Assembly: GCA_051362555.1 (NCBI GenBank)
Contig: CM120641.1
Coordinates: 15,004,001-15,068,000 of the forward strand
Direction: 5' to 3'
DNA length: 64,000 nucleotides
From: Lingula anatina
Lineage: Eukaryota; Animalia; Brachiopoda
A program made the translations under genes and the position numbers. Of this stretch, positions 43,858 through 64,000 are shown piece by piece. The notes below the pieces were generated by a model, which made no database searches, was not told where the DNA came from, and saw nothing but the letters and a program-made list of their open reading frames with translations. The first letter of the stretch is position 1, and every line of letters begins with the position of its first letter.

Positions 43858-44748
43858 TTAGAGAATAACACACGCTGCACTCATTTGCTCTGCCTCACCA
43901 GCTACCTCTGCGCTCCTAGCACCAACTGAATCTCGGGGTGATTTAGAGCCTGTCTTTTGATTGTTATTCACACTACCATTTGTCAAAGAGGTAGAATTTG
44001 TTGAAGGAGGGTCCTGCCACCACATTCTCCCCAAGCTGTAGAAACTTGAGGACCTGGCAGCAGACATGTTTACTGCTGAAAAACGGCCAACATTTCCCGC
44101 ACTGGTGGTGACCACCACTTCCTGATCCACCACTTTGAGGCTGGTGACCTGACCTGGCGCCATCTGCTGGATGACCTGACGCCCTGTGCTCAGATCAAAA
44201 ATAAGAATCTGATCTCCAGACGCCATCCAAACATGTTTCCCATCCAGCATAAGATCCATGTGGTGCACCTTGATTCCTTCCATGCCTAGTTTTCCCTTGA
44301 CTTTACCTGCTTTGGTATCCCAGGCAAACAGTCCCTCCTTTGGGGTGTATGATACCACCGTGCTTATGTCAGCTGAGGCAGACACCTTGGAAACATGAAA
44401 CTTGTGTGAACGCAACCTAATGTTCTGCTTGGGTCTTGCCACAGATGAAAAATGTAACACATTGGCTTGGTTGTAAAAAATGGCATCCCCTCTAAGGTGC
44501 AAGATCTTGGTGCCACTTACTGTCACTTCTTTGAGGTGCCTTGGGGGCTCTGGATTCCTAGACATTCCCAAGACTTCAACTCGGCCAGTCTTAGAAGAAA
44601 AGAGAACCTGAGATGTTCTTGGGCAAAAGCTAGAAAACACCATTTCTTCTTTGAGGTCAAAAGTCCTGATCAGTTGGTTTTCTTCTATGCACCACAGCTG
44701 TATTGTACGGTTGTTACTGATGCTGACCAGAACATGGACTTCTGCCAC
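43858..44748 (-). CDS. NWD-like terminal coding exon (WD40 repeats plus CaaX)
   Basis: TTTAG|GTG acceptor; TIQLWC, LFAWD and ILIFD WD-type ends; Ser-rich tail then SAACVIL-stop. Confidence 0.9.
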   Translation of the reverse strand: MAEVHVLVSISNNRTIQLWCIEENQLIRTFDLKEEMVFSSFCPRTSQVLFSSKTGRVEVLGMSRNPEPPRHLKEVTVSGTKILHLRGDAIFYNQANVLHFSSVARPKQNIRLRSHKFHVSKVSASADISTVVSYTPKEGLFAWDTKAGKVKGKLGMEGIKVHHMDLMLDGKHVWMASGDQILIFDLSTGRQVIQQMAPGQVTSLKVVDQEVVVTTSAGNVGRFSAVNMSAARSSSFYSLGRMWWQDPPSTNSTSLTNGSVNNNQKTGSKSPRDSVGARSAEVAGEAEQMSAACVIL

Positions 44749-47700
44749 CTAAATTATATTGAAATACATGAGACATTCAAAGCATAAAGTGGATAGTGAG
44801 TGCACTTGATCAAAACACAAACACATTTATATTCATTAAGGTGTGTGCTTTCTTTTCATATTCCTAGTGGGTGTCTCTTTTACACATATTAATGCAAACA
44901 TGATAGATCAATATGAAGATTGTCTTTTAGTAAACAATAATACTTAAACAACCAGGACTTTGAATGCAGTTATCATATTCCAATTTTTAACATCTCATCA
45001 TCTGATTCTCTTTCAGTTAAAACTCATAAATGTAGACTTATATTATTCATAAATAGAAAATTTAATATTGCTAAAATCCCGGGTTCCATTTTAAATCTGT
45101 CGTCTAAACTAAGTGGTGGCAATTCATCAAAAAAAAAAAAAGAGGAAGTTTATTGACAGATCACGCATGTTCACTATATTATTTTTTTAATTTCAAATTC
45201 TCATTTAGCTTTTTGCATAACTCCTTGAATAAGTAGACTCAAGCTAGCTGCTTCATTTTTCTGAAGCTTGCTAGATTTAAATATACAATGTAGAGAAGAT
45301 AAAGAACTTATCAAATAAATACCTGTGCACAAGCTAGAGGTTTGACATCTTTAGATGGTCCAGCTGCCTTTAGAAGCCTGGTGGTATTGTTTGCTAAATC
45401 TGATGCCACAGTAAAATATCTGTCCCTGCTCTGTACACAGGCAAAATGGCCTTCTTTGTCTAATACAGGCTTCAAACCAGAACCTGGAAGAAACCTGATA
45501 CAACAGGAAGCATGAAATCATAAATATTCAAAAGTGCACATTAAAAAGACAAAAAGTACAGTAGCTTGTATATGTACTTTAACAAGTATAACAAATTATA
45601 AACAACAGGAATTTTTGTGATGGATTTTATCAAGAATTACCTTTATCTGATAAAATAAATTTAAACTGTCAATTGACAAATTGATCTGTTAAATCAGTAA
45701 CTGTTGAAAATTGTGTCCAGAAGAGGGATTTGAGAACAATGAATATACAAATCCATCCTCTGTACTTATGAAATACTCAGACTATATGTATTGACAGTCA
45801 AATCATGATTATAACATCTTTTTTAATGAGAAAGGGGTGACAAACCTCTCAGGCTGCTTTTCTCTTTTTGTAAATATTTAACATTTTCATAATCATATTA
45901 TTTCAGTAAATGTATTCCTTACCCTTGTCTCTCCACACTGCACTGCAAAGGTTCTAGAGTCCAGAGACGGACCTCCATCTCCTCCTCACATCTTGTCATC
46001 ATGGCCTCCCCACAAACTGACAGTTCATCACAAGACACCATCAGGGTTTTCAGCACTGAAAAAAAAATGGATGAGTCAAATGATGGGCTCCGTTTTTCAA
46101 TTCTGACTGCTCATCTCTGCATACTGCTACAAAGACAGATACAAAGATTTTACTATAACTGCATGCTCTCTAACCTATTACATGTAAGAAATATCTTATT
46201 GAATAATTTAAAACATATGACACCGTGATAGTGTTATAAACAGTTCACTTGTACAAGTAATCTGTATCACTTTCCAAATTATCCTATTTTGAAGAAACAA
46301 AATTAAAACAAGAAAGCACAGTAGGGATAAAGTTACCACATGTATTACTTGGGAGGGTAAACTATGTGAATATTTAGGCTAATCAAGATGCACACATACC
46401 ATTATATACCTTTACTTTTACACACATGCATATACCATTAATTTGTTTATACTAACATGCTTAAATTCATGTATATGACACACAAGCACTCCTTGAATCA
46501 TTAATTTATTTAAACCATATCACACCTTTTCCTTCTCGGAGGTTCCACAACTTCACGCCTCCTTCCCTAGAAGCAGAGACCAGTACATCCTGGGGAATAC
46601 CAGTATCTGATGGAGAAGATGCAAAGTGAATTGTATGCACAAGGTCTGGGTGTGCCTGCTCAAAGACATAAGAGCATTCCCCGCTGACCAAGTCCCACAC
46701 AGAGATGGCGCTATCAGCAGCAACACCAAGACACAGTCCAAACTGATCAATAGCAACATCTTGAACCCTGGTTTTGCTGCCCAGGATCTCATGCAAAACT
46801 TTTCCATCTTCCAGGTTGAACACCACCACCTTTCCATCATGTCCCCCTGTAGCACACACCTTCTCCTTGGTGACAAAGGCACAACTAACGCAATCACTGT
46901 GTTTGTCCAATGTGTGCAGTACTTTCCTGTCCACCATGCTCCTGACGCTGACACTGCCCTTAAAATGACCAGTGACTAAGTACTGGCCACAAACTGAAAT
47001 CTGGAAGCAGGAGACACCATCAGTGACTCTCTTTGCACTTCCTTGGCCTTGGCACACCACATACAGGACATTCTCATGGAGGAGAAGGACTCGCTCACTG
47101 TTTGCACTCATCTTAAGCCTCGTCCTCTTTGAAGAAGTCCACCTTGAGGTAGTCTCCCAGGCAATGGTATCTGACTTTTGGTGAAATACCACATACTCTT
47201 CATCTGTGTCTAAATGATGGGTGTCTAAAATTTTCACTGTAAGGCCATCTTTGCTAAAAATGGCTGCCTGATCTCCACTATCGCTAAGGCTGATAGCAGA
47301 CACTGGATCTGAAGAACATGTCAACAGATTTATAAAACATACTGCTTATAAAACATACTGCTTACTCATAAAAGCAAGGGTTATCTATTTACAAAGTAAA
47401 GACAATTTTGTATCAACAAAATTTGCTTTATCAGTTCATTGAAAGAGATTAAATAAATAAATAAAAATAAAAAGCTTAAAATCAATTTGATAAAAATTCT
47501 AACACAGTGCAAAACCTGATAATGGTCATCACATCAACTCTCAATTCCATAATCATTTATGAACATATTAGTCTTAAATAATAATGTTATCATATTATAA
47601 CCCAGGTCTCTACATCAAATACATTATGCACATACCTTTCATAACTTTTGAAAGTAGCATCTCGCAAGCATCACAAGTTTCCCATATTGACACAGTCTTA

Positions 47701-50700
47701 TCATCATGTGCCAGGGACAGCCTTTTCTCATCCTTGGACAAGCTAGCAGCAGTGACCATTCTTGGAGGTAAACCAGCTACCCCAATGTGATACCCAATGG
47801 GAGCATCAAGCCAGGTTGATGTTGGGATGAGTAAGGGTTTTGATGCCCTGTTGAGACACCAGTCCAGAGCTTGCTTGGTGACTCTGCCTATGACACTGGG
47901 AAAGGCACTGGAAAGGGAGCGTATGTGGCCCAAGAGGCTCGTTGCAAAATGTGATGTCCCTTTGTCATTTGCGTCAAGCTTTTCCTGTACACAAATTAAG
48001 CTCTCTCTCAAAATCTCCACCTCAGGATGGTTCATGATTTCCAAAGTTATGTTAAAGTCATTAATGACTTCCGTCAAAGACATGATCTTGCTTTTGGCAA
48101 AGAGCCAAAAAAAGTTACCCAAGGTTATTGTCAGAAGGTCCTCTTTCTTCTCAGAGTGTAACAAGTAGTATGGGAGGTCACTGACATTCCACAGGTGTTC
48201 AGGCCCAAGTGCTGAAAACTCATCACTTTCAAAGCTGGTGTGCCCATCCTCTTCATCTCTATGGAACCTGTCCAGCTCCTGTTTCCAGACCCAGAGAAAG
48301 AAGTCTGACATTTTCCGTAGCAGTGAGCTACGGTTGCTGGGCGACTCTGGGGGACCATCCAAGTAGCATTCCATGGCAACCTGGAAATATTGCCTGGTAA
48401 AACAAAACAACAGTATTATCTATAGTGTATACACATATGTATATATATGGGGAAAACAATTTTCAGGCTGTATTTGTTTATGATATATATCTTATACAAA
48501 AAAAAGGATAAAAATGGATCTGAGGTTAGAACTCTGACCATAATTTTTCATTGAAAACAGTGTAATTGTAAGAGTTCCTCTATGATTCTTATTTCCTATG
48601 CTCAAATATTGTATTAATTTCTAAATTTGCATTTAAAAATTAATCTTAATATTTAATCAAACAAATAAAAAGATATATTTTAAAACTGATTAATGGATTA
48701 AGCATAAATGAAACAAGTCATTTTCAAAGAAGTGGCATATATAGTGTGTATACGTAGCACAATCGGTTTAATTATGAGCATATGCAGCATCATATATATA
48801 TATATATCAATCAAAGTTTTTGCTTTCTCAGCAAAAAGATCATTCCCTAAGTCATCAACTTTTGTAGGGGCGGATCCAGAGATACGTTTTGACAGTCTTC
48901 CAAATTATCTTTGTTGATCCATCCTCCATTTTTGACCATCTTCCAACATAAAAAATTAGATACCCCTCAATGTAAACTTGAAAATCTGACCGTCTTCCAG
49001 AAGACCCAGAAGACGGCCTAAATCCGCCTGTTTTGTGCAAATATTTCTGTTTGTAGGTGATTTAAAATTCAAACATAGTTAATTAGATCTTTAAAATTGG
49101 ATTTTTAAACATTACTTGATCTGATTGTAATTACCAGATGTATCTATATTCTTTACAATGGTCCCATCTATTGTATGCATTAAACATTGAATTTTATAGA
49201 TTTTCTTCAAGGAATCTATGCAAAAAAACTACTACAGTAATATGCAATTAAGTTATGGACTAGCCACACTGATGAAAATAAGAATGATTAAGCATTCCAA
49301 TGGTGCATAGTAACTATTGCAGATCAATTTAACACATGCATGGATTTTTGATGAAATTGATTACAACTTATTGCAGGCAATTATCACCCAATACCATAAC
49401 AAGCCATTGTGGGTGTTACCAAAACACTGGAGAAAGGCACAAAAGAACCTCAACTTATATCCAATAACTAAGCATTATTGTATAATCTAACTATTGGTTA
49501 GACTCACTGTAATTATTTGCTGTGAAAATATTTTCAGATCAGGTGGTGTCTGCTCTATGATTATTAATGTTTAAATTATATACTTAAGCAGGGATATACA
49601 TGAGTTTACTGCATACGATATGTTTAAATCAAATATTATTCTTTATATTGTGTTACACTGTAAAAGATCCATGCACTATCAAAACAGTTAAAACAAAAGG
49701 TATATAATGTTGTCACAAAGCTTTGTTTATGGAAGTTAAGATGATACTCACCTTTGCTCAATAAACTATGAACTGCAAGCAAGAAATGTGATCTTTACCC
49801 AAGCTTTGTAATTAAAAATTACTAGAATGTTACAAGTGTAAGATACTGATTAGCATAAAATTCAAAATGCGAACTTACTGTGGGAAAGTAGTAAGTGGGG
49901 GAGAAGTGATTACCTATGATTACCTGATTACCTATGGTTTAATCAAATAGTCTACTGAGAGGGGTTCATCTATCTGTAACATAAACCCGACTTTACAAAA
50001 ATATTTGTATCTATAATGAATAAAAGTATAAGGAATATGCAATAGCAACCGATACCAACCTCTGAGTGAAGCTGTAAACTTTGGTTCCATACGCCAGTTT
50101 TTCCCGCAGTATCTGGAATCTAGTAATGAGTTCCTGTTGAAGACCATGCCAGCTCTCCAGGACTTTCCACAGTTTGTCTGCATCACTCTTAGCCCCCAAT
50201 CTCCCTGCTTCTCTTAACACAGCATCATCCACACTCAACAGGTTCTCAAGTTCCTTTAAACTCAAACCATACCTACACATAAAATGATATCAATAAAAAT
50301 TCAAACTTTATTTTTCAAACTTGAATTTTTTAAAACTCCTATGCTAGTATCTGATTCATATACTAATAAAAGTTATTTTGGTAAGTACAGAAATATTAGA
50401 CTAAGTACAAAATTTAAACAAAAAAAATTATTTGAAAAGGTTGCTAAATCAAATTATAATGTTTCATTTTGTTATGAATCACCAAATCAAACATCTATGA
50501 AACAGTCCATTTGTAAATATGTAAAATGTTTTTAAAAATTCATATTCACACATATTTTATTTCTTAATTACCATACACAATTAAATTAGACAAGTAGCTC
50601 TGTTTGAGTCACTAGGCAGTAACTATTAGGAGCCATAACAAAACACAGTTAGACTTTAAGCAAGATCAATATCTGTCTACATTCTATTAACTGGAGTAAT

Positions 50701-51928
50701 AATTACACAGTCATAATTGATTTTTTAACTGCTTCAGAATTGATCTTGCTGTAAAGTCAATCCAATTTACTTTGTATTGTTCCTGTTTAATTTTGTTTAA
50801 AAACTACAGTAAACCAATCAGGACAAACAAAATATTTTAACTAGCCTTTTGTTCAAATGCATCCCTGAAAGCATGTTCTTATCTCTTTTTAGTTAGATGC
50901 AGAGTCAGACAATCTTTTCTGATCTGTTCTTGAAAACATGATGGACTTCAGCAGTTTTGCAATGAAACAATAGATTAAACTCACCTGGCCAATGCCATAT
51001 ATCCAAGTACATGTGACACCATAGCAGTACCATACTTCCTTTCTAATCTTTTATAAAAATCCTTCACAGCAGCACGGAGGGTATTGGATAAGACTGGATT
51101 TTCTTCCTCACTGTTCTTTTGGCCCTCAGGATTGGGAACCTGGTGTATTACAGTATTGAAGCACATCTTCACATACAGTGGTGTCTTACAATGGGCAAAG
51201 AACTCAAAAAGACTCTCAAATTGCTCTTCTGTTAAATTCTTTTCTACATCATTTTGCCACCGAGCAAGATTTTCTACTATCATATCTTCTGTGAAACTTG
51301 CGACTTGCAGGTAGGTTTTCTCATCTGGGATCCGTTGCAGAAGTTTCTCCAGCACTCCATGTTCATTTGGATCAGTTGAGAGCACCAAGGAGATCATAGA
51401 TGGCACTGAAGAAGGGACCCAGCTTACAAAATCCATACCAGGTGTAGAGTGCAGTTCATTTATTCCATCCAGGACAAGTACCAATTTCCGCTTCTGTGCC
51501 CTAAGCACCTTACTGGCTTCTTTTAACAATTCATCAAAATTTCTCAAAGTTCTATCTACTTGGTGGAATATTCTGTTTTCTGGCACTGGTAGGTTCAGTT
51601 CTTTACATAGCTCAATTTGGATGCCGATCAAAATGTCATGAAGCCAGGAGCTTCTCTGGGATATGCCAATGAACCTTTGGATTACTATGGTATTTTTTTG
51701 TTTAGCTTTCAGATGTCTCCCCAGCTGGGCCAGTGTGACAGTCTTACCACAACCTGATGTTCCATGAACAATATAAGGTTTCTGGGGTTTATCATTATAG
51801 TTGATGTGAGCCAGGATGTATTTGACCACCTGACCCCTTGGACTTGTACCTTTTGTTTTCTCTGCTGCATAGGTTTCATGATAAGCAAGTTCTTCTTGGA
51901 AATGATTAATAATTGAATTAGTCTGCAT
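43858..51928 (-). CDS. NACHT and WD-repeat domain protein (NWD1/NWD2-like STAND ATPase), 1297 aa; complement(join(43858..44748,45323..45494,45923..46055,46526..47308,47636..48393,50060..50272,50985..51928))
   Basis: All six introns are GT-AG and phase-compatible (2,2,1,1,2,0); the 3894-nt CDS is open. Walker A GTSGCGKT, Walker B LVLVLDGINE, TPLY, GLSLKELENLLSVDDAVL, ELPYH-like DLPYYL, many WD40 repeats, C-terminal CVIL. Confidence 0.9.
45323..45494 (-). CDS. NWD-like coding exon 6
   Basis: CTTCCTGTTGTATCAG acceptor, CAG|GTATTT donor; open in the required phase. Confidence 0.75.
45923..46055 (-). CDS. NWD-like coding exon 5
   Basis: TTTTTTTTTCAG acceptor, GG|GTAAGG donor; open in the required phase (EVRLWTLE). 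Confidence 0.8.
46526..47308 (-). CDS. NWD-like coding exon 4 (WD40 repeats)
   Basis: HSDCVSCAFV, TGGHDGKVVVFN, ISVWD, SASREGGVKLWN; donor G|GTGTGA. Confidence 0.9.
47636..48393 (-). CDS. NWD-like coding exon 3 (helical domain, first WD repeat)
   Basis: TTTTACCAG|G CAA TAT; QYFQVAMECYL, DLPYYL, AHDDKTVSIWE; donor G|GTATGT. Confidence 0.88.
48865..49030. mobile_element. Degenerate hAT-like MITE in NWD intron
   Basis: Ends TAGGGGCGGATCCAG / CTAAATCCGCCTG, with TTTG-like flanks on both sides. Confidence 0.4.
50060..50272 (-). CDS. NWD-like coding exon 2 (winged-helix region)
   Basis: TAG|G TAT GGT; YGLSLKELENLLSVDDAVL; donor AG|GTTGGT; 213 nt. Confidence 0.85.
50985..51928 (-). CDS. NWD-like coding exon 1 (NACHT core)
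   Basis: Acceptor at 51991/51990, ATG at 51928 with an in-frame TGA upstream; Walker A and B; donor AG|GTGAGT. Confidence 0.9.
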
Positions 51929-52082
51929 TTTGTTGTTATAGCCTCATGTATTTGCTGTCCTCATAGTTGATGTTGCAAAGCAAATCATTCCTAAAAAATA
52001 AAATCAGAAAGATAAATTTGAAAGTAGATTGTACAGTAAGTACCAGTACATAAAACATATACGGGGATAGTATATGAAAGCA

Positions 52083-52239
52083 CAGGCACGTAGCCAGGGG
52101 GGTTCGAAAGAACCACCCTTTTTGCTAGGAAAAGGTCCACTTTGGATAAAATTTGATCTAGGTACATGAACGTTTTTTGAAAAAGGTCCACTTTTTCAGA
52201 AAACGAACCCCTCATTTAAAATTGCTGGCTACAGGCCTG
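52083..52239. mobile_element. 157-bp MITE with 5-bp TSD (hAT5-like)
   Basis: TIRs CAGGCACGTAGCCAG / CTGGCTACAGGCCTG; AAGCA duplicated at 52078-52082 and 52240-52244; internal repeat AAAAGGTCCACTTT x2. Confidence 0.75.
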
Positions 52240-52764
52240 AAGCACATACAGGTACATGTAACCTGAATTAAATTGACTACCTTGTAATATGATTATAAAA
52301 GGGACAACTTGAGGAATCTAAGAAAGGAATAAATTAGCTACCAGTGTTAAAGTTTACTGAGGTTTATTCAAGGCTTACCCTCCAGTCATCAAGCAATTTA
52401 ACATAATTCAATGTAGTTCTGACCTTTTTTTTCAATGTAGTTCTTTTTTTTTCTAGTCATCCGTGCAATTGATTATAGCCACACTTTTCAAATACCTGAT
52501 AAATCCAAAATGACTGTTGTGGGTGATTCACTACATATATTCTGTAACTACCAGAACAGTGTAACTTTAAGGAATAGTGCTTTTATTGCTTCAAAAGACA
52601 TGAAAAATAACTTTTTTCCTAGATCATTTTGGATTGACGATGTGGGAATGGAATGGAATGGAATGTTTATTGATCATAAAGAACCTTAACATACAAGGTA
52701 CAGATCATCGATAGCGTACAAGCAAATATAAAATGGTCACAGAAATACAATATTAGATATAATA

Positions 52765-52800
<36 letters not shown>

Positions 52801-53035
52801 ACATGGAACATACGAATTAAACTTACACCTAAGAATGGATATTTTACTGACCGACATCCAACTATAACAAGGCACCATAACACTACTAGCAATAATGACG
52901 CACAATTACAATGAGAAATAAATGAATAATTATATAGGTTATATATCCAGCTACAGTAGTTTTTTTGTGTGTAGCATTTCGTAAACCCATACTATCTATC
53001 CATCCCGACTTTGCTAATGACACACAGGGATTATG

Positions 53036-56000
53036 TTAACTAGTGTTCTGGATAGTGAGCAACTTATCCCTAAGTTTTAAACAGCTACCTAAATATTGTA
53101 CTACAACATATATAATGTCCATCTCAACAGACCCCATTAGAAAGTTGAATATTTCTTTTTCACTAAACCCTTCAAATGATACAAAAGACTCTAGCTTAGT
53201 ACTCATTTGGTTCCGCTGCTCTGTATATACTGGGCATTCCCTAACTAGATGAAATTCATCTTCTATTCTCTGAAGATCGCACAATTTACATAACCTCTGC
53301 TCCAGCGGTGTCTTAGGTCGGGTAAATCTCCCCCGCTCCACCTGTAGGGTATGTGCACTTAATCTTATTTTACAGAAGGTGGTTCTTAGACTCTTATTCA
53401 TAATTGTAGTGTAATTCTCACATGAGAATCTGTTTTTGAAGCCTACATATGTTCTAAGTTTTTTACTACTATCTACTGCCTTTATCATCTCTTCCCATTC
53501 CTCACTGTAGGCCTGCTTCATGTGTTGGTTTATTATGGCCTGTGTGTTGCTGTTGGATATTTTAATGGGATTAACCCATAATTCCTCGGCATGGCCTACT
53601 AAGAGTGCCGCTTTAATACCCGAAGACCAGGTTGTGATACCAGCTTCTGACATTGCCCTGTTTTCAATAAGGGCATCGAGTACCATGGCATTTTCACCTT
53701 TATATAGTCTATAGTTCAGGTAACTCCAATATTTGACCGCCAGGGCCGTAAGGTGAATTAGTATGGGGTAACTTCCCAATTCACCCCTTGCAGCGTGGTT
53801 ACTGGCTCTCTTGTGTATTCCCAGAATGGTCTTACAGGCTTTAATGTGGAGCTGCTCTGCTGAGGGCTTGTCACATGTGGAGAGAATATTATTTTTTTGC
53901 ATTTTGTGTATCAGATATGGAATCCACACTTCACTACCGTAACCCATAACTGGAACCACTAGGGATTGGAAAAGTTTTTTTGCGACGGCCGTGGGGGCGG
54001 CAAACAGCTGGTTACGAATTTTGAAGAACACTTTAGCTGCCTTGTCTCTCAGTGTGTCCATACCTTTGGTAAATTTGCCGGAGGGGGTGAACGTAATTCC
54101 CAAGTAGTTATATTCAGTAGCAATGCCCACTCTCTTTTCCCCCAGTGTGAAGATCTCTTTATCTATCGTTCGCCCTAGCTTGTTGAAGATAACCACCTTA
54201 GTCTTATCTGTGTTCACTCTAAGTTTCCATCTGTCACAATAACTAGCTAGTTGGTTCAAGGAAAACTGGAGACCTTGTGCACTTTCTGATAGTATGACTA
54301 AATCATCAGCATAAAGTAGGCATGTGAGTGGTCTGTTATTCAAAAGCGGTGGCTTGCTTTGAGACGTATCCACAAATAGGTCTGGTATGTCCTTTATGAA
54401 AATATTGAAAAGTGTAGGGCTTAGCACACATCCTTGTTTGACTCCCACGCTCGTACTGAAGGGGTTGGTGATCCCCCCCTCACATTTAATAGAAAACATT
54501 ACTGAATTATACATACTTCTGAGTATGTTTACGAATTTAGAGCTAAAATTTGCCTTAATTAATTTATAAAGCAGTCCATTCCTCCAAACAGTGTCATATG
54601 CCTGTGAAAAGTCTACAAATGCTGCATAAAGTTTGGACCTAGAGATCTTGTGAATGTATTTATCTACCACACTCTTCAGTGTTAGGATATGGTCACTGGT
54701 CCTGGCACCTTTCCTAAATCCGATTTGGTTGTCAGGGATGATTTTCTCTTTCTTGACCTGGTTATTTAGTCTTTTGTTAAGTACTTTACAGAACAGTTTG
54801 GATAAGTTGCTTGAGATAGCTATTCCCCTATAGTTGCCTGGACATCTGCGATCTCCTTTCTTGTGGAGCACGCTAAGGGTGCTGGTACGCCAGGCGGTCG
54901 GGAATTCTCCTGAGGAGTAGATTACATTGAAGACCTTAGATATTGCCGGTGCTAATGAAGTAATCCCTTCCTTTATCATCTCGTTAGGAATACCGTCTAG
55001 ACCTGGGGCTTTATTTCTTTTCAGACTAGTTGCCGCCAAACGAACCTCTTTTTCCGTAATACGAAAATCCATTTCATTGAATACCCTATGGTCGTGTTGC
55101 AAGTGGTATTTGTTTATTTCATCCTCAAAAGATGTGTCATCATGCGGAATTTTCCTATTCATTAATTGATTGAAATGACTCCACCACTCGCTTGGTGGGA
55201 TAGGGTTTCCAGAAGACTGCTTTTTAGGGCAAAGTTTATCATACATCTCCCAGAATGCCTGCGGGTCTTCATTCTCCAGCTTGCTTATACGCTGATATAT
55301 AATCTCCCTGAATGAATTGCTTTTGCTATTGAGTAGCCTTTTGTATCTTTTTTTCATGGCACAGTAATCTTGGACTATCTTTCGATTCTCTGGGTTTTTA
55401 CGTATTTGTCTAGCCAAGGACCGGAGTTTTCTGCTCATATCTTTACAGTCACCATCAAACCAGGGCTTTTTGCCCACACCTTTTCTTACTTTAGGTATTC
55501 TTTTTGTGATGCCTGCATTGGCAGCTATTCTCGTCACTAGTCTGTAGAAATCCTCAAGACAGTTTTCAACTCCTTCTGCTGTTTCCATGAATGTTGCAGA
55601 TGTGAATTTCCTTATTTCTTCTGCATTATGGGGTAGAGCGAGAGCTCTAAGCCATCTATCTCGTGAACCAGTATTCCAGAAAAATTTCTCTGGGATCTTA
55701 AGTAGAGCCTCTGATGAGCCCGTAGGAGTAATGTACTGGCACGTATTCATACTTATATTGCAGGAAAGCAGGCAGTGGATCGAGTACGGTGATAAATCGT
55801 GTACCCTGAAGAACTCAATCTGACTAAACATCTCCACATGGCAAAGCATATAGTCAATCGTGCTGGGCTGCCCGTTATGACTAAAACATGTCTGATTACC
55901 AACAAAATCCCCTACTACTCTACCATTCACTATCCTAAGACCGCTGCTCTTACAAAGTTCTAATAGTCTCCTACCATTGCTATCTACACTGTGACAATCT

Positions 56001-56605
56001 AAGTTCCTTCTGACCATTGGGACATCTGACACATAACCTTCTCCTGTCCCAACCTGTGTATCACTGTCATGTTGTACAAAGTCCTTCTCTGTGTAAGTTT
56101 TTGCATTGAAGTCCCCAAACACAATGCATTTGCCTAGTTTTTCATATTTTGACAGATCCTCCTCTAGAATATTGAAGATATCTTCCCTTTGGCTGGTATA
56201 GGAGCTTCCAACTGGACTGATGTACACGTTACACATGTAAACATCTTCTCTAAGATTGAAGAATTCCTTTTGTAGTTTTATCCACATGAGCTCCGAGTTA
56301 TTTCGTTTGATAAACATAATCCCTTTGAGAATTTCGCTCCTTACCCCTATTGCTAAACCCCCAGATGCCTTGGGGGAATTTTTTTATCTCGGTCTGAGGT
56401 TTGATTCAATATGGAACCCCTCCAGGTGAAGGTTATCATTGACATCACAGTGGGTTTCAATCAAACAGAAAATGTCCAATTGATGTAGTGCAGATTGGAA
56501 GCATGGCAAGTCAAGTTTGCTTACCCTTTCATTCCCAATCCTCATGAACATACCATCTATGTTCCATGCACCAGCTCTTAAACTCCGAGGAGAGCTGTGC
56601 AGCAT
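53036..56605 (-). CDS. LINE ORF2p (APE endonuclease, reverse transcriptase, CCHC), 1189 codons, with one in-frame TAA at 56384-56386
   Basis: WNIDG, DIFCLIET, SGG, GDFNA, IDY (APE); PGLDG, QIGFR, GVKQGCVLSPTLF, YADD (RT); CKLC...EDEFHLVREC. The two ORF-track pieces 56384-56605 and 53036-56317 are in the same frame. Confidence 0.93.
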
Positions 56606-57422
56606 TGTAAATGAGAGTTATATACCAAGTCAAAGGTACTGTTAATGGATGGAGATGACTAGCTACTGGTTATATGTATGTATTTTAACTTCAGATGTAT
56701 GAAGCTTAAAATAATTAATAAATAAATGATATCTGAGCAATGCACTGTTAAAGTATCACTCTGTTTATAGTGCCTCTTCTTTCCGTTACGCTGTGACGAC
56801 TAACTTAACTTACTAGTTGCCCTACTAACAAATGATAATTAACTTAAATAAATAGATAGGGTAGGTAATAATATATACAGCCATGCATACCTACAAAAAA
56901 AAAAAAAAAAAAAAAAAAAACATTAAATCTTAAGTATATCTGCACTATACTAAAAATATCTTGATGAGGCATGTTATATTGATACACTGTAAGATAATCC
57001 ACTTCTAACCATTATAATGTGAAGACTAACTTAAACATATAGTGCCACTGTTTACCATTTTATAATGATAAATAGCTTAAATAAATAGATAGATATATAA
57101 AAATATTTAATCCTACACCCAAAAATATCTGCTTTATTATGATAAATAGCTTAGATAAATTGATAGATATACAAAAATAATTAATCCTACAAACAAAAAT
57201 ATCTGCATATCGATAATGACACAATACTTCCTTATCTTGCTACTTGGCACTGAGATCTGGCATGTCCATTGAATCGTAGCAATTTCATGTACTATATACT
57301 CAATTACAGTTCATTGGGCTAGTAGCACCCTTGTGCTGCTAATAAATACATTTAAAGCAAGTCCCTTTAGAACCTTTTTTCAATTACTAGTAAAGTCAAT
57401 GTTAAACCCTTTTTCAATTACA

Positions 57423-59561
57423 TCATAATCCTCTTCTTGCACTCTTTCTACGACTGTCAATATTCAACACTTTCTCAATTGTGTCACGTAAGTTAGCTGC
57501 CAGCAGACTAGTGCCTTGGCGCGATAAATGGACACCATCTCTGTTGAACAGGTGTCTTTGTATAACTCCCCTTCGCATAAAGTTTCCATTTTCACAAACA
57601 TGAAGATTGTTTACTTTGGACGAATGTATTTTGGATTTCAGCAGGGCATTTACAACATCTGTGTCTCTGTTCAGCATAGCATAGTCCAACCTTGGAGTTC
57701 CCAGAGATATGATAACTTGTGTCTGGGGTTGAGTCTTTGCAAAGTCCTCTCCCATTGCATATAGTCTCTCTGCACACTGAGCAGCCGATTCCTCTCCGAC
57801 ATCATTTGTGATTTCATGAAGAATAACACAATCAGAATCTAGGTTCTTGTTGTTGAACATAATGTTAGCAGCCTCTGGAGCTGTGTATGCTAAAACTGTC
57901 TCTGTCCTCGCAGCCGGCACAAGGCGATGGGGGATAATGTTTTTTATCTGGGAGTTCCCAATAAGGGTCACTGTACGTCTCCTTGATCTTTCGTGGCTGT
58001 TGCTTACTCCTCTCATGTCAGTGACTGTTTGAATGTGTTGTGGTGGTGTCACGACAGGGGTACGTAGAGCCTCCGAGTATGATAGTCGGGGTGGGGAGGA
58101 AGCACCGTTGACGTGGTTTTCTGCTCCTGAGGCTGGCACGTTGATGGGATGAGCAGATTGGTGTCCATCATTTTCTGATTCAAGGTTAGAATCTATCTCT
58201 GTGGGTGGGTAATGGTGCCTCTCTGCTGGGGACTCTGGTGTATCAAACAGTGTGGGGCTTATACTTCTGCCACCATTATAGCTACAGACTGATTTTCTCC
58301 TTTCCCCAGGAGCTGTGCTGCTAGTGCAACCTGCTGCATTAAAAGTGTTGTCATGGTCACACTGTACACTTGTTCTTCGTGCTTCATACATTTCCTCTCT
58401 GGATTTTTCCAGCTCAAGTTGGAGGTTGTCGCACTTGGAACGTAGGTTAGTTAGATCATCCTCTTTGTCTTTAATAACAGACATGAGCTGCTCAGCTGTA
58501 TGGTCCCTTGCCTGCATGGCTGCAGTGATTTTATCCACTTTGGCCTGTAACCCCATCTTTTCTGCCTTAAATTTATTGAGTTGATCCTTGGCTGCTTGTT
58601 CCATATCCACCCTGAGTTTATGTATCTTATCTGTCACACTGTTTTTATCAGCTTTCTTAACGTTATCCAACTCACTCTTGGTTTTATTCAACTCCTTTCT
58701 CAGAGATGATACTTCAGACTCGAGGGTTTTCTTTTCATTTTTCACTAGTTCTAAATCCCTTTGTGCCAACTTGATCTTGAGATCAAGACACTGCTCTTGT
58801 AATTTATCAACCCATCTAGCCTCAAATTCCTTCAGAGTCTCAACCATAAAGGTTTGCGATTGTTCTCTCAGTGGCTCAGTTCGTGTCCCTTGGTCTGCTG
58901 CCTCTAGGGAAGTTTGCGTTTCAGCCTCTAAGAAGTCGTGGATAGTTTGTGTAGCTACTGCTGTTGTGGGTAATTGAGAGTTGGTGCTGACAGATTTACC
59001 AGTGAGTTGTGGCATTTGTGGCATTTCGTTATTGTTATTGTTAAGATGATTTAAAATGTCTGGGTCTGGACTGACACACAATTCACAAGAGAACTTTCTG
59101 CTGGAATTTCTAAGAGAGGTGAGCATATACGCAGGCAATGCTGAACAGGTAAAATGTATCCACCCTCTACAATTGCAACACTGGATCATGAATTCATTGT
59201 CAGGTATACCGCACTGAGCTTCACATGCCATTTTATGTACGAGGCAGAGAGCAGCTCCTTCATCTACATCTGTACATACCCCTTTCTGTAAAGTTTCTAT
59301 CTCTGGTGTTGCTGGAGTTTCTTGTTTTTTACTATCTAGAAATTTCCTTAGGGTCATATTGGACTCTTCATTAATATGTACCTCGATGTCAGTCTCAGGG
59401 ATATCATAGGAGTTCATGAACTTTACCGCTTCTTCAATTGTTTCAAAGGCTTTGTGGCAGTTTCCTGGGAATCGCACTGTGCTGGCCTGGGCCATTGGCC
59501 ACCGTAGAAAGATGCCGGGCTCTCTCCCAGATGCTACGGCGTAGAATTTGGTTGACGACAT
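57423..59561 (-). CDS. LINE ORF1p, 712 aa: RNase H1-type hybrid-binding domain + PHD finger + coiled coil + SGNH esterase
   Basis: FYAVASGREPGIFLRW...FPGNCHKAFETIEEAVKF (aa 6-48); Cys4-His-Cys3 PHD (aa 113-162); heptad-rich region at about aa 240-395; LIGNS / HEITND / DGVH esterase blocks. Confidence 0.9.
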   Translation of the reverse strand: MSSTKFYAVASGREPGIFLRWPMAQASTVRFPGNCHKAFETIEEAVKFMNSYDIPETDIEVHINEESNMTLRKFLDSKKQETPATPEIETLQKGVCTDVDEGAALCLVHKMACEAQCGIPDNEFMIQCCNCRGWIHFTCSALPAYMLTSLRNSSRKFSCELCVSPDPDILNHLNNNNNEMPQMPQLTGKSVSTNSQLPTTAVATQTIHDFLEAETQTSLEAADQGTRTEPLREQSQTFMVETLKEFEARWVDKLQEQCLDLKIKLAQRDLELVKNEKKTLESEVSSLRKELNKTKSELDNVKKADKNSVTDKIHKLRVDMEQAAKDQLNKFKAEKMGLQAKVDKITAAMQARDHTAEQLMSVIKDKEDDLTNLRSKCDNLQLELEKSREEMYEARRTSVQCDHDNTFNAAGCTSSTAPGERRKSVCSYNGGRSISPTLFDTPESPAERHHYPPTEIDSNLESENDGHQSAHPINVPASGAENHVNGASSPPRLSYSEALRTPVVTPPQHIQTVTDMRGVSNSHERSRRRTVTLIGNSQIKNIIPHRLVPAARTETVLAYTAPEAANIMFNNKNLDSDCVILHEITNDVGEESAAQCAERLYAMGEDFAKTQPQTQVIISLGTPRLDYAMLNRDTDVVNALLKSKIHSSKVNNLHVCENGNFMRRGVIQRHLFNRDGVHLSRQGTSLLAANLRDTIEKVLNIDSRRKSARRGL

Positions 59562-60356
59562 GGTTATTGTTTATCGTATCGTATATATCTATCTATATGA
59601 GATCGATCTATTGCCTGAGTAGTATCAGAGTTCCTGTAGGATACCAAGTGTACAAGTTAACCTCAGTTAACATGAGTTATAGACGCTGCTCGAGGTAACT
59701 CACCGGCTTAATAGTTTCAAATTATTCTTATTCCTTCTCTAACTCAGTTCTTTGTTCTTTGTTCTAACCATGACGCCGCTATTTGAAGTGTCTCTAGCTC
59801 TTGGAATCCTTGTGCTCGGCTAAATCTGTGTGTGCTGATGTGAAGATACTAAGTTCATTTTCCAGTTTCTGCTAGTCATTCCATCCAATAACTTCTGAAT
59901 TAGTTATATTTTATCATAATAATCTGAACGATAGACAAAATCAAGCTAACCGCCATAGCCTCGTTCTCGTTCTCTCGTTCTGTGGGTATTCAATTCTTTC
60001 AAAACGTCCAATCTATTACATCTGACTCCTTAGAATTGTTTATGACTGTTGCAAAATTTTATATATGAATCATATTCAACGATCAACAATACAACGGATA
60101 TTATGGTTGATCATACGTGTATATCACATATCTAGCACGAGTTGACTGGTAAACTACTGTTGTTAACACTGATAGTGACACGGCGTTCACCCTGAGGGTT
60201 GAAGGCATCCCATCCCAAATGGCTGTCACTTTCAAGACTTTTCAACTTCCAAAATTATACAATCGCTAGGAAACACAAACAAGTTAAATGATAGAAATTA
60301 CAAGACTGGCCGTATCATGTTAATCTAGATCTATTCCTAGTTTCTATCAGACTCAC

Positions 60357-60831: not shown

Positions 60832-60996
60832 ATGAGCCCCGAAGATAAGAAATTAGCGATCATAGCTGGTATTGCTTTCTTTACTGGAGTGTTCGTTGGG
60901 TACAAGCTGAAGACTTGGCGCGTTTCTTATTTGAAGAAGAAAAGGGACTGGTTTGCTAAGAAACTTGCTGCAACAAACAGGGACATCGTTTCATAG
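60832..60996 (+). CDS. MTLN: Mitoregulin-like micropeptide, 54 aa: MSPEDKKLAIIAGIAFFTGVFVGYKLKTWRVSYLKKKRDWFAKKLAATNRDIVS
   Basis: ACCATG Kozak; N-terminal TM helix plus basic amphipathic tail. Gap-free match to human mitoregulin as recalled from memory: AFxxGVxxG(W/Y)-x5-RxxYL-x9-KLAAT. Confidence 0.85.
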   Translation: MSPEDKKLAIIAGIAFFTGVFVGYKLKTWRVSYLKKKRDWFAKKLAATNRDIVS

Positions 60997-61409: not shown

Positions 61410-61461
61410 AATAGATAGATAATTTATTTAGTTTTTCAAGGCCTCCGGCCCATAGTACATG

Positions 61462-61493
<32 letters not shown>

Positions 61494-64000
61494 GTCCGTG
61501 AGAAGTATTAAAGATTATTAATTTTTGTCAGTGATCTAAAATTTCTTTTCTTAATAAAAAAGCATTAAATATATAAACAGCTAAACTAGATATTAAATTT
61601 GTGTTTTTTGTGTTCATTAATCTTAAAAAACTTTCTTTAGTAGGGTTATTCACTGGCAAATATTTTTCTCTTAATTCTGTATATGCTACACATGTCATTA
61701 AAAAATGATATTCGTCCTCAACATCATAAATATTATGTTTTTTACAGATTAAACAGAGTCTATTGCATCTTTCTATACCTTTCCATCTACCGCTCTCAAT
61801 ATTTAGTAGGTGATTTGCGCATCTGAATCTTGCTAGTGAGGTTCTATGTTTTACATTTTTAATGCTTAATAAGTAACACTCCAGTGTTAACGTACTCTTA
61901 AATAATGAATAAGTATCCAGTTTGCTGCTCTTACATATGTTACTGTGCCATATTTGGCCAGCATTATCTACTAATCTTTCTCTGAAAACTTTAATAAATA
62001 AAACAGAATTTCCCACACCCTGAGCCTCCCAGACAATGGATTTGAACAATGGATACAGAATGGCATTGCACCAGCTAGAGGGGAATTTTCCACTACTAAT
62101 ACAGTATTATAAAGATTTAACAACAGTGGTGATAAATGGTTGAAGCCATATTTAAACATTTCAATCACTAATCCATCAGGACCTGGAGATTTTCCATTTT
62201 TCATGGTGCGTACAACATTTGATAGTTCATCCATAGTGAATGGCTCATTTAGAGTATTGCAACTATTTAAAGGCTGTATGTGCTCAAACCATTCAGTATA
62301 CTGTTCGATATATGTTATGAAGCTCTTTTCGATGTCATTTACATTTTCATTTAATAACTTGTAAAAATGATTTTGCCATGCTTGTGGGCTGATATTATTC
62401 TTTTTAATAGACTGAGCACTTTTCAGAGACTTTATATAATTCCACATTTCCTTTGTGGTTTTTAAAGTGTGCAATTGCTCGACTTCATTTGCAGTGTAAG
62501 AGTTTTTCTTCATTTCACAAAGTGCCTTAAACTTACTCTTACATTCCTTATATTTTTTAAAATCATTTTGATTATTTGACTTCCTGAAATCATTGAGACA
62601 TTTGAATTTAAGTTGTTTTAATAAATCACATTCTTGATCCCACCACCTAGGTTGATTTCTTTGAACTTTGTTTTCCCTGGCTAAGAAGAGAGTACCTGAC
62701 CGTTGTAGTAGACCTTCTAACATTTGTTCAGCATTGTTCACATCATTCATCTGCAATAAGTAATTGAAATGGCCTAAACTAAAAATATTATCATTTTGTA
62801 AATTACCAAGGAACCTATTTGCTTTTTTGTTGTTCCATTTGTACAGTTTGCGCTTGCATGTGCTTATTGCATTTTCGGGTTTGTTTGAAACATCCCTGCA
62901 CTGGACTTGACATGAGATGGGGAAATGATCTGATATATCTAAGGATAGAACCTCAAATGTATCTACACACATGAAAAGGTCTGTATGTAACAAAATATAA
63001 TCAACAACACTGCAGCCATTGTACTTCTGACATGTGAATTCACCTCCAATATCTGGTGCAATGCGGCCATTTAACATGTGCATATTTTGACCTATACATA
63101 GCTCTATCAAAGATCTTCCAAAATTATTTTCAGTGATGTCCTTTGAAACCCTGGGCATACAAAAATCATCCCTGTCATAAATCCCCTCAAGGTCCAGATG
63201 TCGTAAGCTGTCGTCACAATAATCTGGCAAATTACCAGTTCGTGCATTTAAGTCCCCCATTAAGAAAAGTTTTAAGTCCCCATATTTTGTGAAAATTTCG
63301 AGCAGTACATTTTCTAACCTTTGAATACCATTTGTTTCATTTAAAGTGGTATACAGCACTGATCCCTCTGGGGCAATGTATAGACAACCTAGTAAAATAT
63401 CTAAATCACTATTGAAAAAGTTCCCATCCAAAATTAGAAAAACCATATCGGTATAGGTATTTATGACATTTTTAACTAACTTAAGCAAGTGATTTTTGAT
63501 AAAAATACACACTCCTCCTTTTCTTGTTAAGACCCTGGGTTTATCAAAAGAGGTGTGCAAAGCTGAGATTGTCCCGAATTCACCATCATGTTCTGCAAAA
63601 GTCTCTGTGACTCCTAAAATGTCTGATTCTAGTAGTAATTTACAGAAATCGGGGTGATTAACTTTCGATTTGAGTCCATTTGCATTATAACACGTGATAC
63701 ATAACCTGGTTATTTCACTGCCTGTAACTACACTTTCGATGCACGGAGCACATGGAGTGATTGTATCCAGTTGTCCCTTGCTGTTGTCACATACTGTCAT
63801 TGGACCTTGGCCACATCCCTAAGGGGCTTCATGGTCTTGCTGCCACTCTTGAAAATGATTTGTCGCCTCTTGATCCATGCCTTGCTGGGAGCCCCTTATG
63901 TTAGGTGTTTCCCTGTTTGGTGGGATCTGTTGCCCTGGTCTGTCAGAGGGATATTGCCGAAAAACCTCTGTATGGTCACAATCTGGGCTCCTGTACAATT
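61410..64000 (-). mobile_element. Second CR1/L2-group LINE, RT domain internally deleted, 5' part beyond the window
   Basis: APE domain (YNANG, DILGVTET, GDLNAR, VVDY, SDHFP) and PGPDG at 61971-63800, joined directly to the C-terminal KLDTY...ESGR...CLIC...EDEYHFLMTC (61528-62049). 3' hairpin GGCC-GGA-GGCC, AATAAA, (CTAT)n tail. Confidence 0.92.
61528..63800 (-). pseudogene. Defective LINE ORF2 (endonuclease retained, RT core missing)
   Basis: 1-bp frameshift near 62097 (restoring it gives SSGKFPSSWCNAILYPLFK), then a jump to C-terminal IVWEAQGVG; no QxGF, QG or YADD motifs. Confidence 0.88.

What the first reader, a model, noticed from the sequence alone, without database searches (positions are those of the whole stretch)
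59415..59552. LINE ORF1p begins with an RNase H1-type RNA:DNA hybrid-binding domain
Seen: KFYAVASGREPGIFLRWPMAQASTVRFPGNCHKAFETIEEAVKFM at the ORF1 N-terminus. Knowledge: this fits the RNase H1 N-terminal HBD / caulimovirus viroplasmin pattern (FYAV..GR..G.F..W.......FP....K.F....EA..F). PHD, coiled-coil and esterase domains are known CR1/L2 ORF1 parts, but I do not know the HBD as a standard ORF1 class. ORF2 here shows no RNase H. Inference: ORF1p may bind R-loops or the TPRT RNA:cDNA hybrid, for targeting or to shield it from host RNase H, alongside a chromatin-reading PHD. This could be an undescribed retrotransposon architecture.
Basis: partly seen in the sequence, partly recalled or inferred. 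Interest (0 to 1): 0.85.

Follow-up and report, generated by a model that had tools for sequence, protein, structure and literature searches.

The report
RNase H1 module in LINE ORF1
A young jumping gene in an animal genome starts its first protein with the small domain that cellular RNase H1 uses to grip RNA:DNA hybrids, and related proteins carry the whole enzyme at the same place, so this element family likely captured RNase H1 and this copy likely kept only the grip.

Summary
ORF1p residues 5-48 match Pfam Cauli_VI (54.6 bits, cut-off 21), and the best PDB match is the human RNase H1 hybrid-binding domain (HBD). ORF1 (HBD-PHD-coiled coil-SGNH esterase) and an APE-RT ORF2 without RNase H form one 7,334-bp insertion with a 6-bp target-site duplication; the empty site appears in 4 of 4 DNA runs. 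The architecture is widespread. Of 68 long esterase-bearing relatives, 24 have the HBD and 8 have an RNase H1 catalytic domain between the HBD position and the PHD; 4 have both. Seven of the 8 keep all four catalytic acids. Best reading: an RTEX-like ORF1 lineage captured a whole cellular RNase H1, and sub-lineages kept one half; here multimeric ORF1p would hold the RNA:cDNA hybrid without cutting it. Binding is untested, and the nuclease-bearing relatives were not tied directly to an ORF2. Ten literature searches found no description, and Schneider 2013 states that esterase ORF1ps lack structured RNA-binding domains. Repbase and Dfam could not be checked.

The parts
52647..59980 (-). Full-length non-LTR retrotransposon, 7,334 bp, polymorphic insertion
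   Evidence: Contigs in 4 of 4 DNA runs (3 studies) join 52640 to 59981, skipping 7,340 bp with 6 letters fitting both sides
59981..59986 (.). Target-site duplication, 5' side of element (6 bp)
52641..52646 (.). Target-site duplication, 3' side of element (6 bp)
59562..59980 (-). 5' UTR, 419 nt
57423..59561 (-). ORF1, 712 aa, open
59418..59549 (-). RNase H1 hybrid-binding domain (Cauli_VI), aa 5-48
59325..59408 (-). Short folded extension behind the HBD (aa about 52-79), with recurring hydrophobic positions in relatives
   Evidence: pLDDT 88-96; I59 in 25 of 34, V61 in 22 of 34; hold-out profile test weak
59067..59225 (-). PHD finger (C4HC3), aa about 113-165
58365..58871 (-). Predicted coiled coil, aa 231-399
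   Evidence: two long helices in the model
57462..57986 (-). SGNH esterase, aa 526-700, with S537, N586, D675 and H678 in place
56606..57422 (-). Inter-ORF spacer, 817 nt, 29% GC, with a 74-nt tandem duplication and a poly(U) run in the sense strand
53036..56605 (-). ORF2: APE endonuclease, RT, C-terminal CCHC; one in-frame stop at 56384-56386 in this copy
   Evidence: contigs of 2 of 4 DNA runs read another base in that codon
54089..54865 (-). Reverse transcriptase domain (RVT_1)
   Evidence: E 1.6e-36
53234..53290 (-). C-terminal CCHC-type motif of ORF2
52647..53035 (-). 3' UTR with a poly(U) run, AATAAA and a short (CATTC)n tail at 52647-52665

Best explanation
This is a full-length, polymorphic LINE whose ORF1 protein begins with an RNase H1 hybrid-binding domain, likely the retained half of a cellular RNase H1 captured into ORF1, and predicted to let the protein hold the RNA:cDNA hybrid of reverse transcription without cutting it. 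Shown: the domain, the element boundaries, and a family of proteins with the same PHD-coiled coil-esterase body whose N-terminus is HBD plus RNase H, RNase H alone, or HBD alone. Inferred: (1) an ancestor carried the whole enzyme in ORF1, delivering RNase H in cis with the RNP to clear the template after first-strand synthesis, a job other LINEs leave to the host or to an RNase H in ORF2; (2) lineages lost either half repeatedly; (3) in HBD-only elements such as this one, ORF1p multimerises through its coiled coil and presents several HBDs, which clamp the growing RNA:cDNA hybrid at the insertion site and keep RNP, template and target together until host RNase H takes over. The PHD would add a chromatin contact and the esterase a membrane contact, as proposed for ZfL2-1.
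For: HBD match above cut-off. One insertion unit with TSD. Of 68 Met-starting, 500-aa or longer SGNH-bearing proteins among the 150 best hits: 17 HBD-PHD-SGNH, 3 HBD-SGNH, 3 HBD-RH-PHD-SGNH, 1 HBD-RH-SGNH, 4 RH-PHD-SGNH, 7 PHD-SGNH, 33 SGNH only; 21 of the 24 HBDs and 8 of 8 RNase H domains pass Pfam's own cut-off. For the two tested (P0029, P0144) human RNase H1 is the best PDB match, ahead of bacterial and retroviral enzymes, and P0029 aligns to it in one stretch over HBD, linker and catalytic domain (E 5e-38). Seven of 8 keep all four catalytic acids. The HBD is the best-kept part of ORF1 (59% identity to P0001, against 45% for PHD and SGNH and 16-27% elsewhere), with the Tyr29 position kept in 30 of 34, Trp43 in 28 of 34 and Lys59 in 25 of 34. 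Trp43 is essential for hybrid binding in human RNase H1 (PMC6846478, passage). No RNase H was found in this ORF2 or in 120 related ORF2s. The three architectures are interleaved on the SGNH tree.
Against: No binding or cleavage data. The Lys60 position is Ala here and Gly/Ser/Ala in 32 of 34 relatives, and Phe58 is His here; Lys59 or Lys60 to Ala costs about 10-fold affinity in the human domain, though other HBDs in the hit list also have Gly/Ser/Ala there. No RNase H-bearing relative could be placed upstream of an ORF2 on DNA (one search found nothing). A single capture is not shown: the SGNH backbone is poorly resolved (20 of 65 forks open), the RNase H tree had no starred branch, and the shared-extension test was weak. 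40 of 68 relatives show neither module, including a group of 24 on the tree, so the module is dispensable in part of the family; some may be truncated gene calls. Whether ORF1p is present at the insertion site is not known for this clade.
Confidence: 0.5

Rival explanations
1. The HBD is the element's RNA-packaging module: it binds double-stranded stems in its own transcript and replaces the RRM or arginine-rich motif of other ORF1 classes.
For: Esterase ORF1ps were said to have no structured RNA-binding domain, and the RTEX entries list no arginine-rich motif (PMC3905857 section 13 and Table S1). The Lys60 position is changed in 32 of 34. HBDs also bind dsRNA weakly (recalled), and multimers would add avidity.
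Against: 40 of 68 relatives have no detectable HBD and must package RNA otherwise. Relatives place the HBD in front of an intact RNase H, its normal hybrid-binding context. HBD net charge is only about +2.
Confidence: 0.22
2. HBD and PHD together steer insertion to R-loop-rich, actively transcribed chromatin.
For: HBD and PHD are adjacent in 17 of the 20 HBD-only long relatives. The PHD has Met and Trp at positions that form the methyl-lysine cage in H3K4 readers (comparison recalled). This copy sits about 850 bp upstream of a mitoregulin ORF, a single case.
Against: One insertion site only. The closest relatives P0002, P0003 and P0005 have the HBD without a PHD. An active RNase H in relatives fits template removal more simply.
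Confidence: 0.13
3. The domain works as a protein-binding or translation module, as in caulimovirus P6/TAV, helping ribosomes reinitiate on ORF2 across the 817-nt spacer.
For: The Pfam family is named after caulimovirus gene VI; TAV drives reinitiation on polycistronic RNA (PMC3542737, passages). The element is bicistronic with a long spacer.
Against: The best matches are cellular RNase H1 HBDs, and relatives carry the catalytic domain. That the HBD-like part of TAV takes part in reinitiation is recalled, not read. Related loci have shorter spacers (L006, L036).
Confidence: 0.06
4. The HBD is a passenger left after loss of the nuclease, with no current role.
For: Many relatives lack it.
Against: It is the most conserved region between ORF1s that share only 16-27% identity in linkers and coiled coil, in proteins from at least a mollusc and an echinoderm. 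Caveat: hits were chosen on a score that includes the HBD.
Confidence: 0.09

Closest known systems
Esterase-type (type IV) ORF1p of RTEX, CR1 and L2 LINEs (ZfL2-1, PDB 4c1b; RTEX_NV, RTEX_BF, RTEX_SK in Schneider et al. 2013, PMC3905857)
   Same: Coiled coil followed by an SGNH esterase with intact catalytic residues; positions match the RTEX rows of Table S1 (CC start 148-356, esterase start 354-550 in the full-length entries) and not the short CR1 rows.
   Different: Carries a structured nucleic-acid-binding domain at the N-terminus, and relatives a whole RNase H1, whereas that paper found none in Repbase esterase ORF1ps. The five ORF1 types in PMC4120745 include no HBD or RNase H.
Cellular RNase H1 (human: PDB 3bsu, 2qk9, 6vrd)
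   Same: HBD fold and the Tyr29, Trp43, Arg52-Phe53-Pro54 and Lys59 positions (numbering partly recalled). Relatives have HBD-linker-catalytic domain in the same order.
   Different: Fused to PHD-CC-esterase in a retrotransposon ORF1; this copy has no catalytic domain; Phe58 is His and Lys60 is Ala.
Non-LTR elements with their own RNase H (plant Ta11 L1, oomycete L1 and Utopia; I-group recalled)
   Same: An element-borne RNase H, presumably for the reverse-transcription hybrid (PMC5348765, passages).
   Different: The plant and oomycete enzymes are archaeal-like, and known cases sit with the RT in ORF2 (recalled). Here the enzyme is of the animal/fungal RNase H1 type, comes with its HBD and sits in the ORF1-type protein.
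Caulimovirus P6/TAV (viroplasmin)
   Same: A reverse-transcribing element with the same Pfam domain outside its polymerase.
   Different: Plant pararetrovirus protein of unrelated architecture that acts in translation reinitiation.

Membership tests
RNase H1 hybrid-binding domain (PF01693) | Profile match above the curated cut-off over the full model | tested here: met
   54.6 bits vs 21, model positions 1-44 of 44
RNase H1 hybrid-binding domain (PF01693) | Three-strand, two-helix fold | tested here: inconclusive
   Confident model with the expected elements, but the fold searches were filled by the SGNH domain and the single-sequence model of aa 1-90 was poor
RNase H1 hybrid-binding domain (PF01693) | Hybrid-contact residues Trp43, Phe58, Lys59, Lys60 | tested here: inconclusive
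   Trp and first Lys kept; Phe is His, second Lys is Ala; Gly/Ser/Ala also occurs there in other HBDs
RNase H1 hybrid-binding domain (PF01693) | Preferential binding of RNA:DNA hybrids | not testable with these tools
   needs a binding assay
Autonomous non-LTR retrotransposon | ORF1 plus APE-RT ORF2 in one insertion with TSD and a simple-repeat 3' tail | tested here: met
Autonomous non-LTR retrotransposon | Both ORFs open | tested here: not met
   This copy has one in-frame stop early in ORF2; contigs of two runs differ in that codon
RTEX clade | RT domain groups with RTEX references (RTclass1 phylogeny) | not testable with these tools
   No labelled Repbase RT set; the PDB holds only L1 and R2, both distant
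RTEX clade | Long ORF1 with coiled coil and C-terminal SGNH esterase | tested here: met
   CC 231-399, esterase 526-700 against Table S1 of PMC3905857
CR1/L2 clades | Short esterase ORF1 with arginine-rich motif; ORF2 without C-terminal CCHC (second point recalled) | tested here: not met
   CR1 esterases start at aa 68-252 against 526 here; CCHC motif present here and in 42 of 64 long ORF2 relatives
RNase H-encoding LINEs | Catalytic RNase H domain in the element | tested here: not met
   None in ORF1 or ORF2 of this element; present in 8 of 68 related ORF1-type proteins

The most novel reading that the evidence does not exclude
A marine-invertebrate LINE lineage moved RNase H1 into the many-copy ORF1 coat protein, then split it repeatedly into cutters (RNase H), grippers (HBD only, plus one relative with an Asp-to-Asn change at a catalytic position) and both. 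The HBD-only ORF1p is a natural multivalent RNA:DNA hybrid reader that acts at the insertion site, guarding the reverse-transcription hybrid or docking on R-loops, a nuclear role for ORF1p not described for any LINE.
Probability: 0.35. Interest if true: 0.85.

Novelty: new variant of a known kind. Interest (0 to 1): 0.68.

Why it matters
Two open points in LINE biology meet here. How LINEs without RNase H remove the RNA template, and why some gain their own RNase H, is called poorly understood in PMC5348765. How esterase-type ORF1ps bind nucleic acid was left open by Schneider 2013, which found no structured RNA-binding domain in them. This family offers a natural series in one ORF1 scaffold (HBD plus RNase H, RNase H only, HBD only, neither), so both questions can be tested by domain swaps in a retrotransposition reporter. 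The element here is young and near-intact, so it is a practical starting point.

Tried and rejected
No whole genome is held for this window, so copy number and insertion preferences could not be counted. Word-indexed protein searches with ORF1 and with the ORF1 alignment found nothing; the full HMMER scan found 1,007 hits at E 0.001 or better, of which the best 150 were seen. Attempts to tie ORF1 relatives to DNA: the SGNH alignment was too divergent for a pattern scan, P0144 found no locus, and viral contigs gave nothing useful. The RT-pattern scan gave 80 loci, mostly distant LINEs; 3 of 80 (L006, L023, L036) have this SGNH type upstream of ORF2, none shows an HBD, PHD or upstream RNase H, and two start inside ORF1 while L023 is interrupted upstream by another element. 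RNA: no RNA holder was listed; in 4 RNA runs, read to 6-25%, no read covered the HBD and a few covered mainly the 3' half of ORF2; those animals may lack the full-length copy, so this says nothing on expression. Single-sequence folding of aa 1-90 failed (pLDDT 49), and whole-model fold searches listed only SGNH proteins. The RNase H tree was uninformative. The hold-out test of the HBD extension gave 8.9 bits for 1 of 4 RNase H-bearing relatives and under 3 for the rest. ESM Atlas: a 75-member, 713-aa Cauli_VI cluster at score 0.81 is a lead only; nothing for P0144. Rejected: chance match (E 1e-14, 34 relatives); a host RNase H1 exon next to a LINE (the HBD lies inside the polymorphic insertion, in frame with ORF1); ORF1 and ORF2 as two separate insertions (one empty-site joint spans both).

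Full report
Observation. The quoted peptide is residues 5-49 of a 712-aa ORF on the minus strand (57423-59561). It matches Pfam Cauli_VI, the RNase H1 N-terminal or hybrid-binding domain (HBD), at 54.6 bits against a cut-off of 21. Its best solved relative is the human RNase H1 HBD (3bsu). A model built from 26 aligned sequences is confident over residues 11-80 and shows HBD, a short folded extension, PHD, two long helices (231-399) and an SGNH domain. The SGNH fold is confirmed by two fold searches, with the ZfL2-1 ORF1 esterase among the hits. Ser537, Asn586, Asp675 and His678 are in place.

The element. An 817-nt AT-rich spacer separates ORF1 from ORF2 (53036-56605: APE, RT, C-terminal CCHC), which has one in-frame stop at 56384-56386. 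Contigs from 4 of 4 DNA runs laid (3 studies) join 52640 directly to 59981, with 6 letters fitting both sides. The unit 52647-59980 is therefore a single polymorphic insertion with a 6-bp target-site duplication and a short (CATTC)n tail. This rules out a host RNase H1 exon or two unrelated neighbours. Three of the four runs also cover ORF1; the listed contigs differ at 0-6 positions. The fourth bridges the empty site and has no ORF1 cover. Two runs read another base in the stop codon, so the stop is copy-specific. The family is young.

Relatives. The HMMER scan of 1.84 billion representatives gave 1,007 hits, and the best 150 were examined. Among them 68 start with Met, are 500 aa or longer and have the SGNH domain: 17 HBD-PHD-SGNH, 3 HBD-SGNH, 3 HBD-RNase H-PHD-SGNH, 1 HBD-RNase H-SGNH, 4 RNase H-PHD-SGNH, 7 PHD-SGNH and 33 SGNH only. 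Those profiles were built from the same set, so Pfam served as the independent check on 78 of the 150: 21 of the 24 HBDs and all 8 RNase H domains pass the cut-off. The counts are not family frequencies, because the query has an HBD and no RNase H, and some calls may be cut at the N-terminus. Named members come from Mytilus edulis (automatic name 'Ribonuclease H1 N-terminal domain-containing protein') and Antedon mediterranea; a DnaJ-headed variant is from Branchiostoma lanceolatum.

The captured enzyme. P0029 aligns to full-length human RNase H1 in one stretch covering HBD, linker and catalytic domain (E 5e-38). For P0029 and P0144 the human enzyme outranks bacterial and retroviral RNases H. 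Seven of 8 domains keep all four catalytic acids and 6 of 8 the His; P0027 has Asn at the third acid (human numbering recalled). The window's ORF1 has no trace of the catalytic domain, and neither its ORF2 nor 120 related ORF2s have a credible match. On an SGNH tree of 68 rows (the window plus 67; P0021 dropped for a short esterase) HBD-only needs at least 7 changes and HBD plus RNase H 3, so the types are interleaved. One capture with repeated loss is the simplest reading, but shuffling or several captures are not excluded. That the RNase H-bearing proteins are LINE ORF1s is inferred: they share PHD and/or SGNH with this ORF1, several fill most of short contigs and so lack introns (P0029: 1,186 aa on 3,922 bp), and this SGNH type lies upstream of a related ORF2 in 3 of 80 loci. 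No such protein was seen beside an ORF2 directly.

Is the HBD functional? It is the best-conserved region (59% to P0001, against 45% for PHD and SGNH and 16-27% elsewhere). Across 34 relatives with HBD plus PHD or SGNH, fragments included, the Tyr29 position is kept in 30, Trp43 in 28 and Lys59 in 25, while Lys60 is Gly, Ser or Ala in 32. In human RNase H1, Trp43-to-Ala abolishes hybrid binding and the Lys changes cost about 10-fold (PMC6846478, passage). Other HBDs in the hit list also have small residues at Lys60. A weaker grip per domain, made up by multimerisation, is the likely outcome (inference).

Mechanism. Best reading (0.5): the ancestor delivered RNase H1 with the RNP, and HBD-only descendants keep a multivalent clamp on the RNA:cDNA hybrid during target-primed reverse transcription. 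Rivals: RNA packaging through dsRNA stems (0.22), R-loop or chromatin targeting with the PHD (0.13), passenger (0.09), TAV-like translation aid (0.06). All functional steps are untested.

Comparison and novelty. The ORF1 layout matches the RTEX rows of Schneider 2013 Table S1, not the CR1 rows; clade membership by RT phylogeny could not be tested. [quoted passage not shown] Metcalfe and Casane 2014 list five ORF1 types with no RNase H or HBD (passages). Ustyantsev 2017 covers archaeal-like RNase H in plant and oomycete elements and calls the benefit for LINEs poorly understood (passages). Passages of PMC11203168, PMC5408684, PMC5753468 and PMC3542737 were also read. Ten full-text searches returned no description of an HBD or RNase H in a LINE ORF1. 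The library lacks most subscription papers, Kapitonov 2009 was not held, and Repbase Reports and Dfam were not searchable, so a database note on this architecture may exist.

Verdict. A real, conserved and widespread architecture; a new variant of the esterase-type LINE ORF1. The more important result is the whole RNase H1 in related ORF1-type proteins. Interest 0.68.

Noticed in passing
P0024, P0027, P0029, P0058, P0063, P0072, P0129, P0143: Eight ORF1-type relatives carry a NADAR (YbiA-like) domain ahead of the esterase, all above Pfam's cut-off; possibly a counter to host ADP-ribosylation of nucleic acids (guess). One search listing showed no title on NADAR in LINEs; none of those papers was opened.
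   Followed up: partly
P0095 (Branchiostoma lanceolatum); P0082: Other N- or C-terminal add-ons on the same scaffold: DnaJ-PHD-SGNH in P0095, and HBD-PHD with CCCH zinc fingers in P0082.
   Followed up: no
P0027: Its RNase H domain has Asn at the third catalytic acid and lacks the His loop, like the binding-only mutant used as an R-loop sensor (recalled); a single sequence that may be a decayed copy.
   Followed up: partly
window 60832-60996 (+): Mitoregulin (MTLN) micropeptide ORF, 54 aa, Pfam PF22002 39 bits vs cut-off 27, about 850 bp from the element's 5' end, head to head.
   Followed up: partly
window 43858-51943 (-): Exons of a NACHT plus WD40 gene (NWD-like); the LINE lies about 700 bp upstream of the NACHT exon on the same strand, possibly in an intron.
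   Followed up: partly
window 61459-64000 (-): A second, distant LINE (25% ORF2 identity) with APE, an internal deletion removing most of the RT, a C-terminal CCHC and a (TTA)n-like tail; its ORF1 runs off the window.
   Followed up: partly
window 52770-52798 and 56895-56920: Poly(U) runs of 26-29 nt in the sense strand of both the 3' UTR and the inter-ORF spacer; the spacer also holds a 74-nt tandem duplication.
   Followed up: no
window 52097-52240: A very high-copy short repeat with GC-rich ends, abundant in DNA and RNA runs; MITE- or SINE-like.
   Followed up: no
window 55296 and 56733: All four DNA runs hold a rearranged copy joining these two places with 18 extra letters (table 5c).
   Followed up: no
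SGNH tree, 24-row group (P0026, P0042, P0047, P0056, P0101, P0145 and others): Long ORF1-type proteins with no HBD, RNase H or PHD and no informative Pfam match at the N-terminus in those scanned; may hold an undescribed domain.
   Followed up: partly
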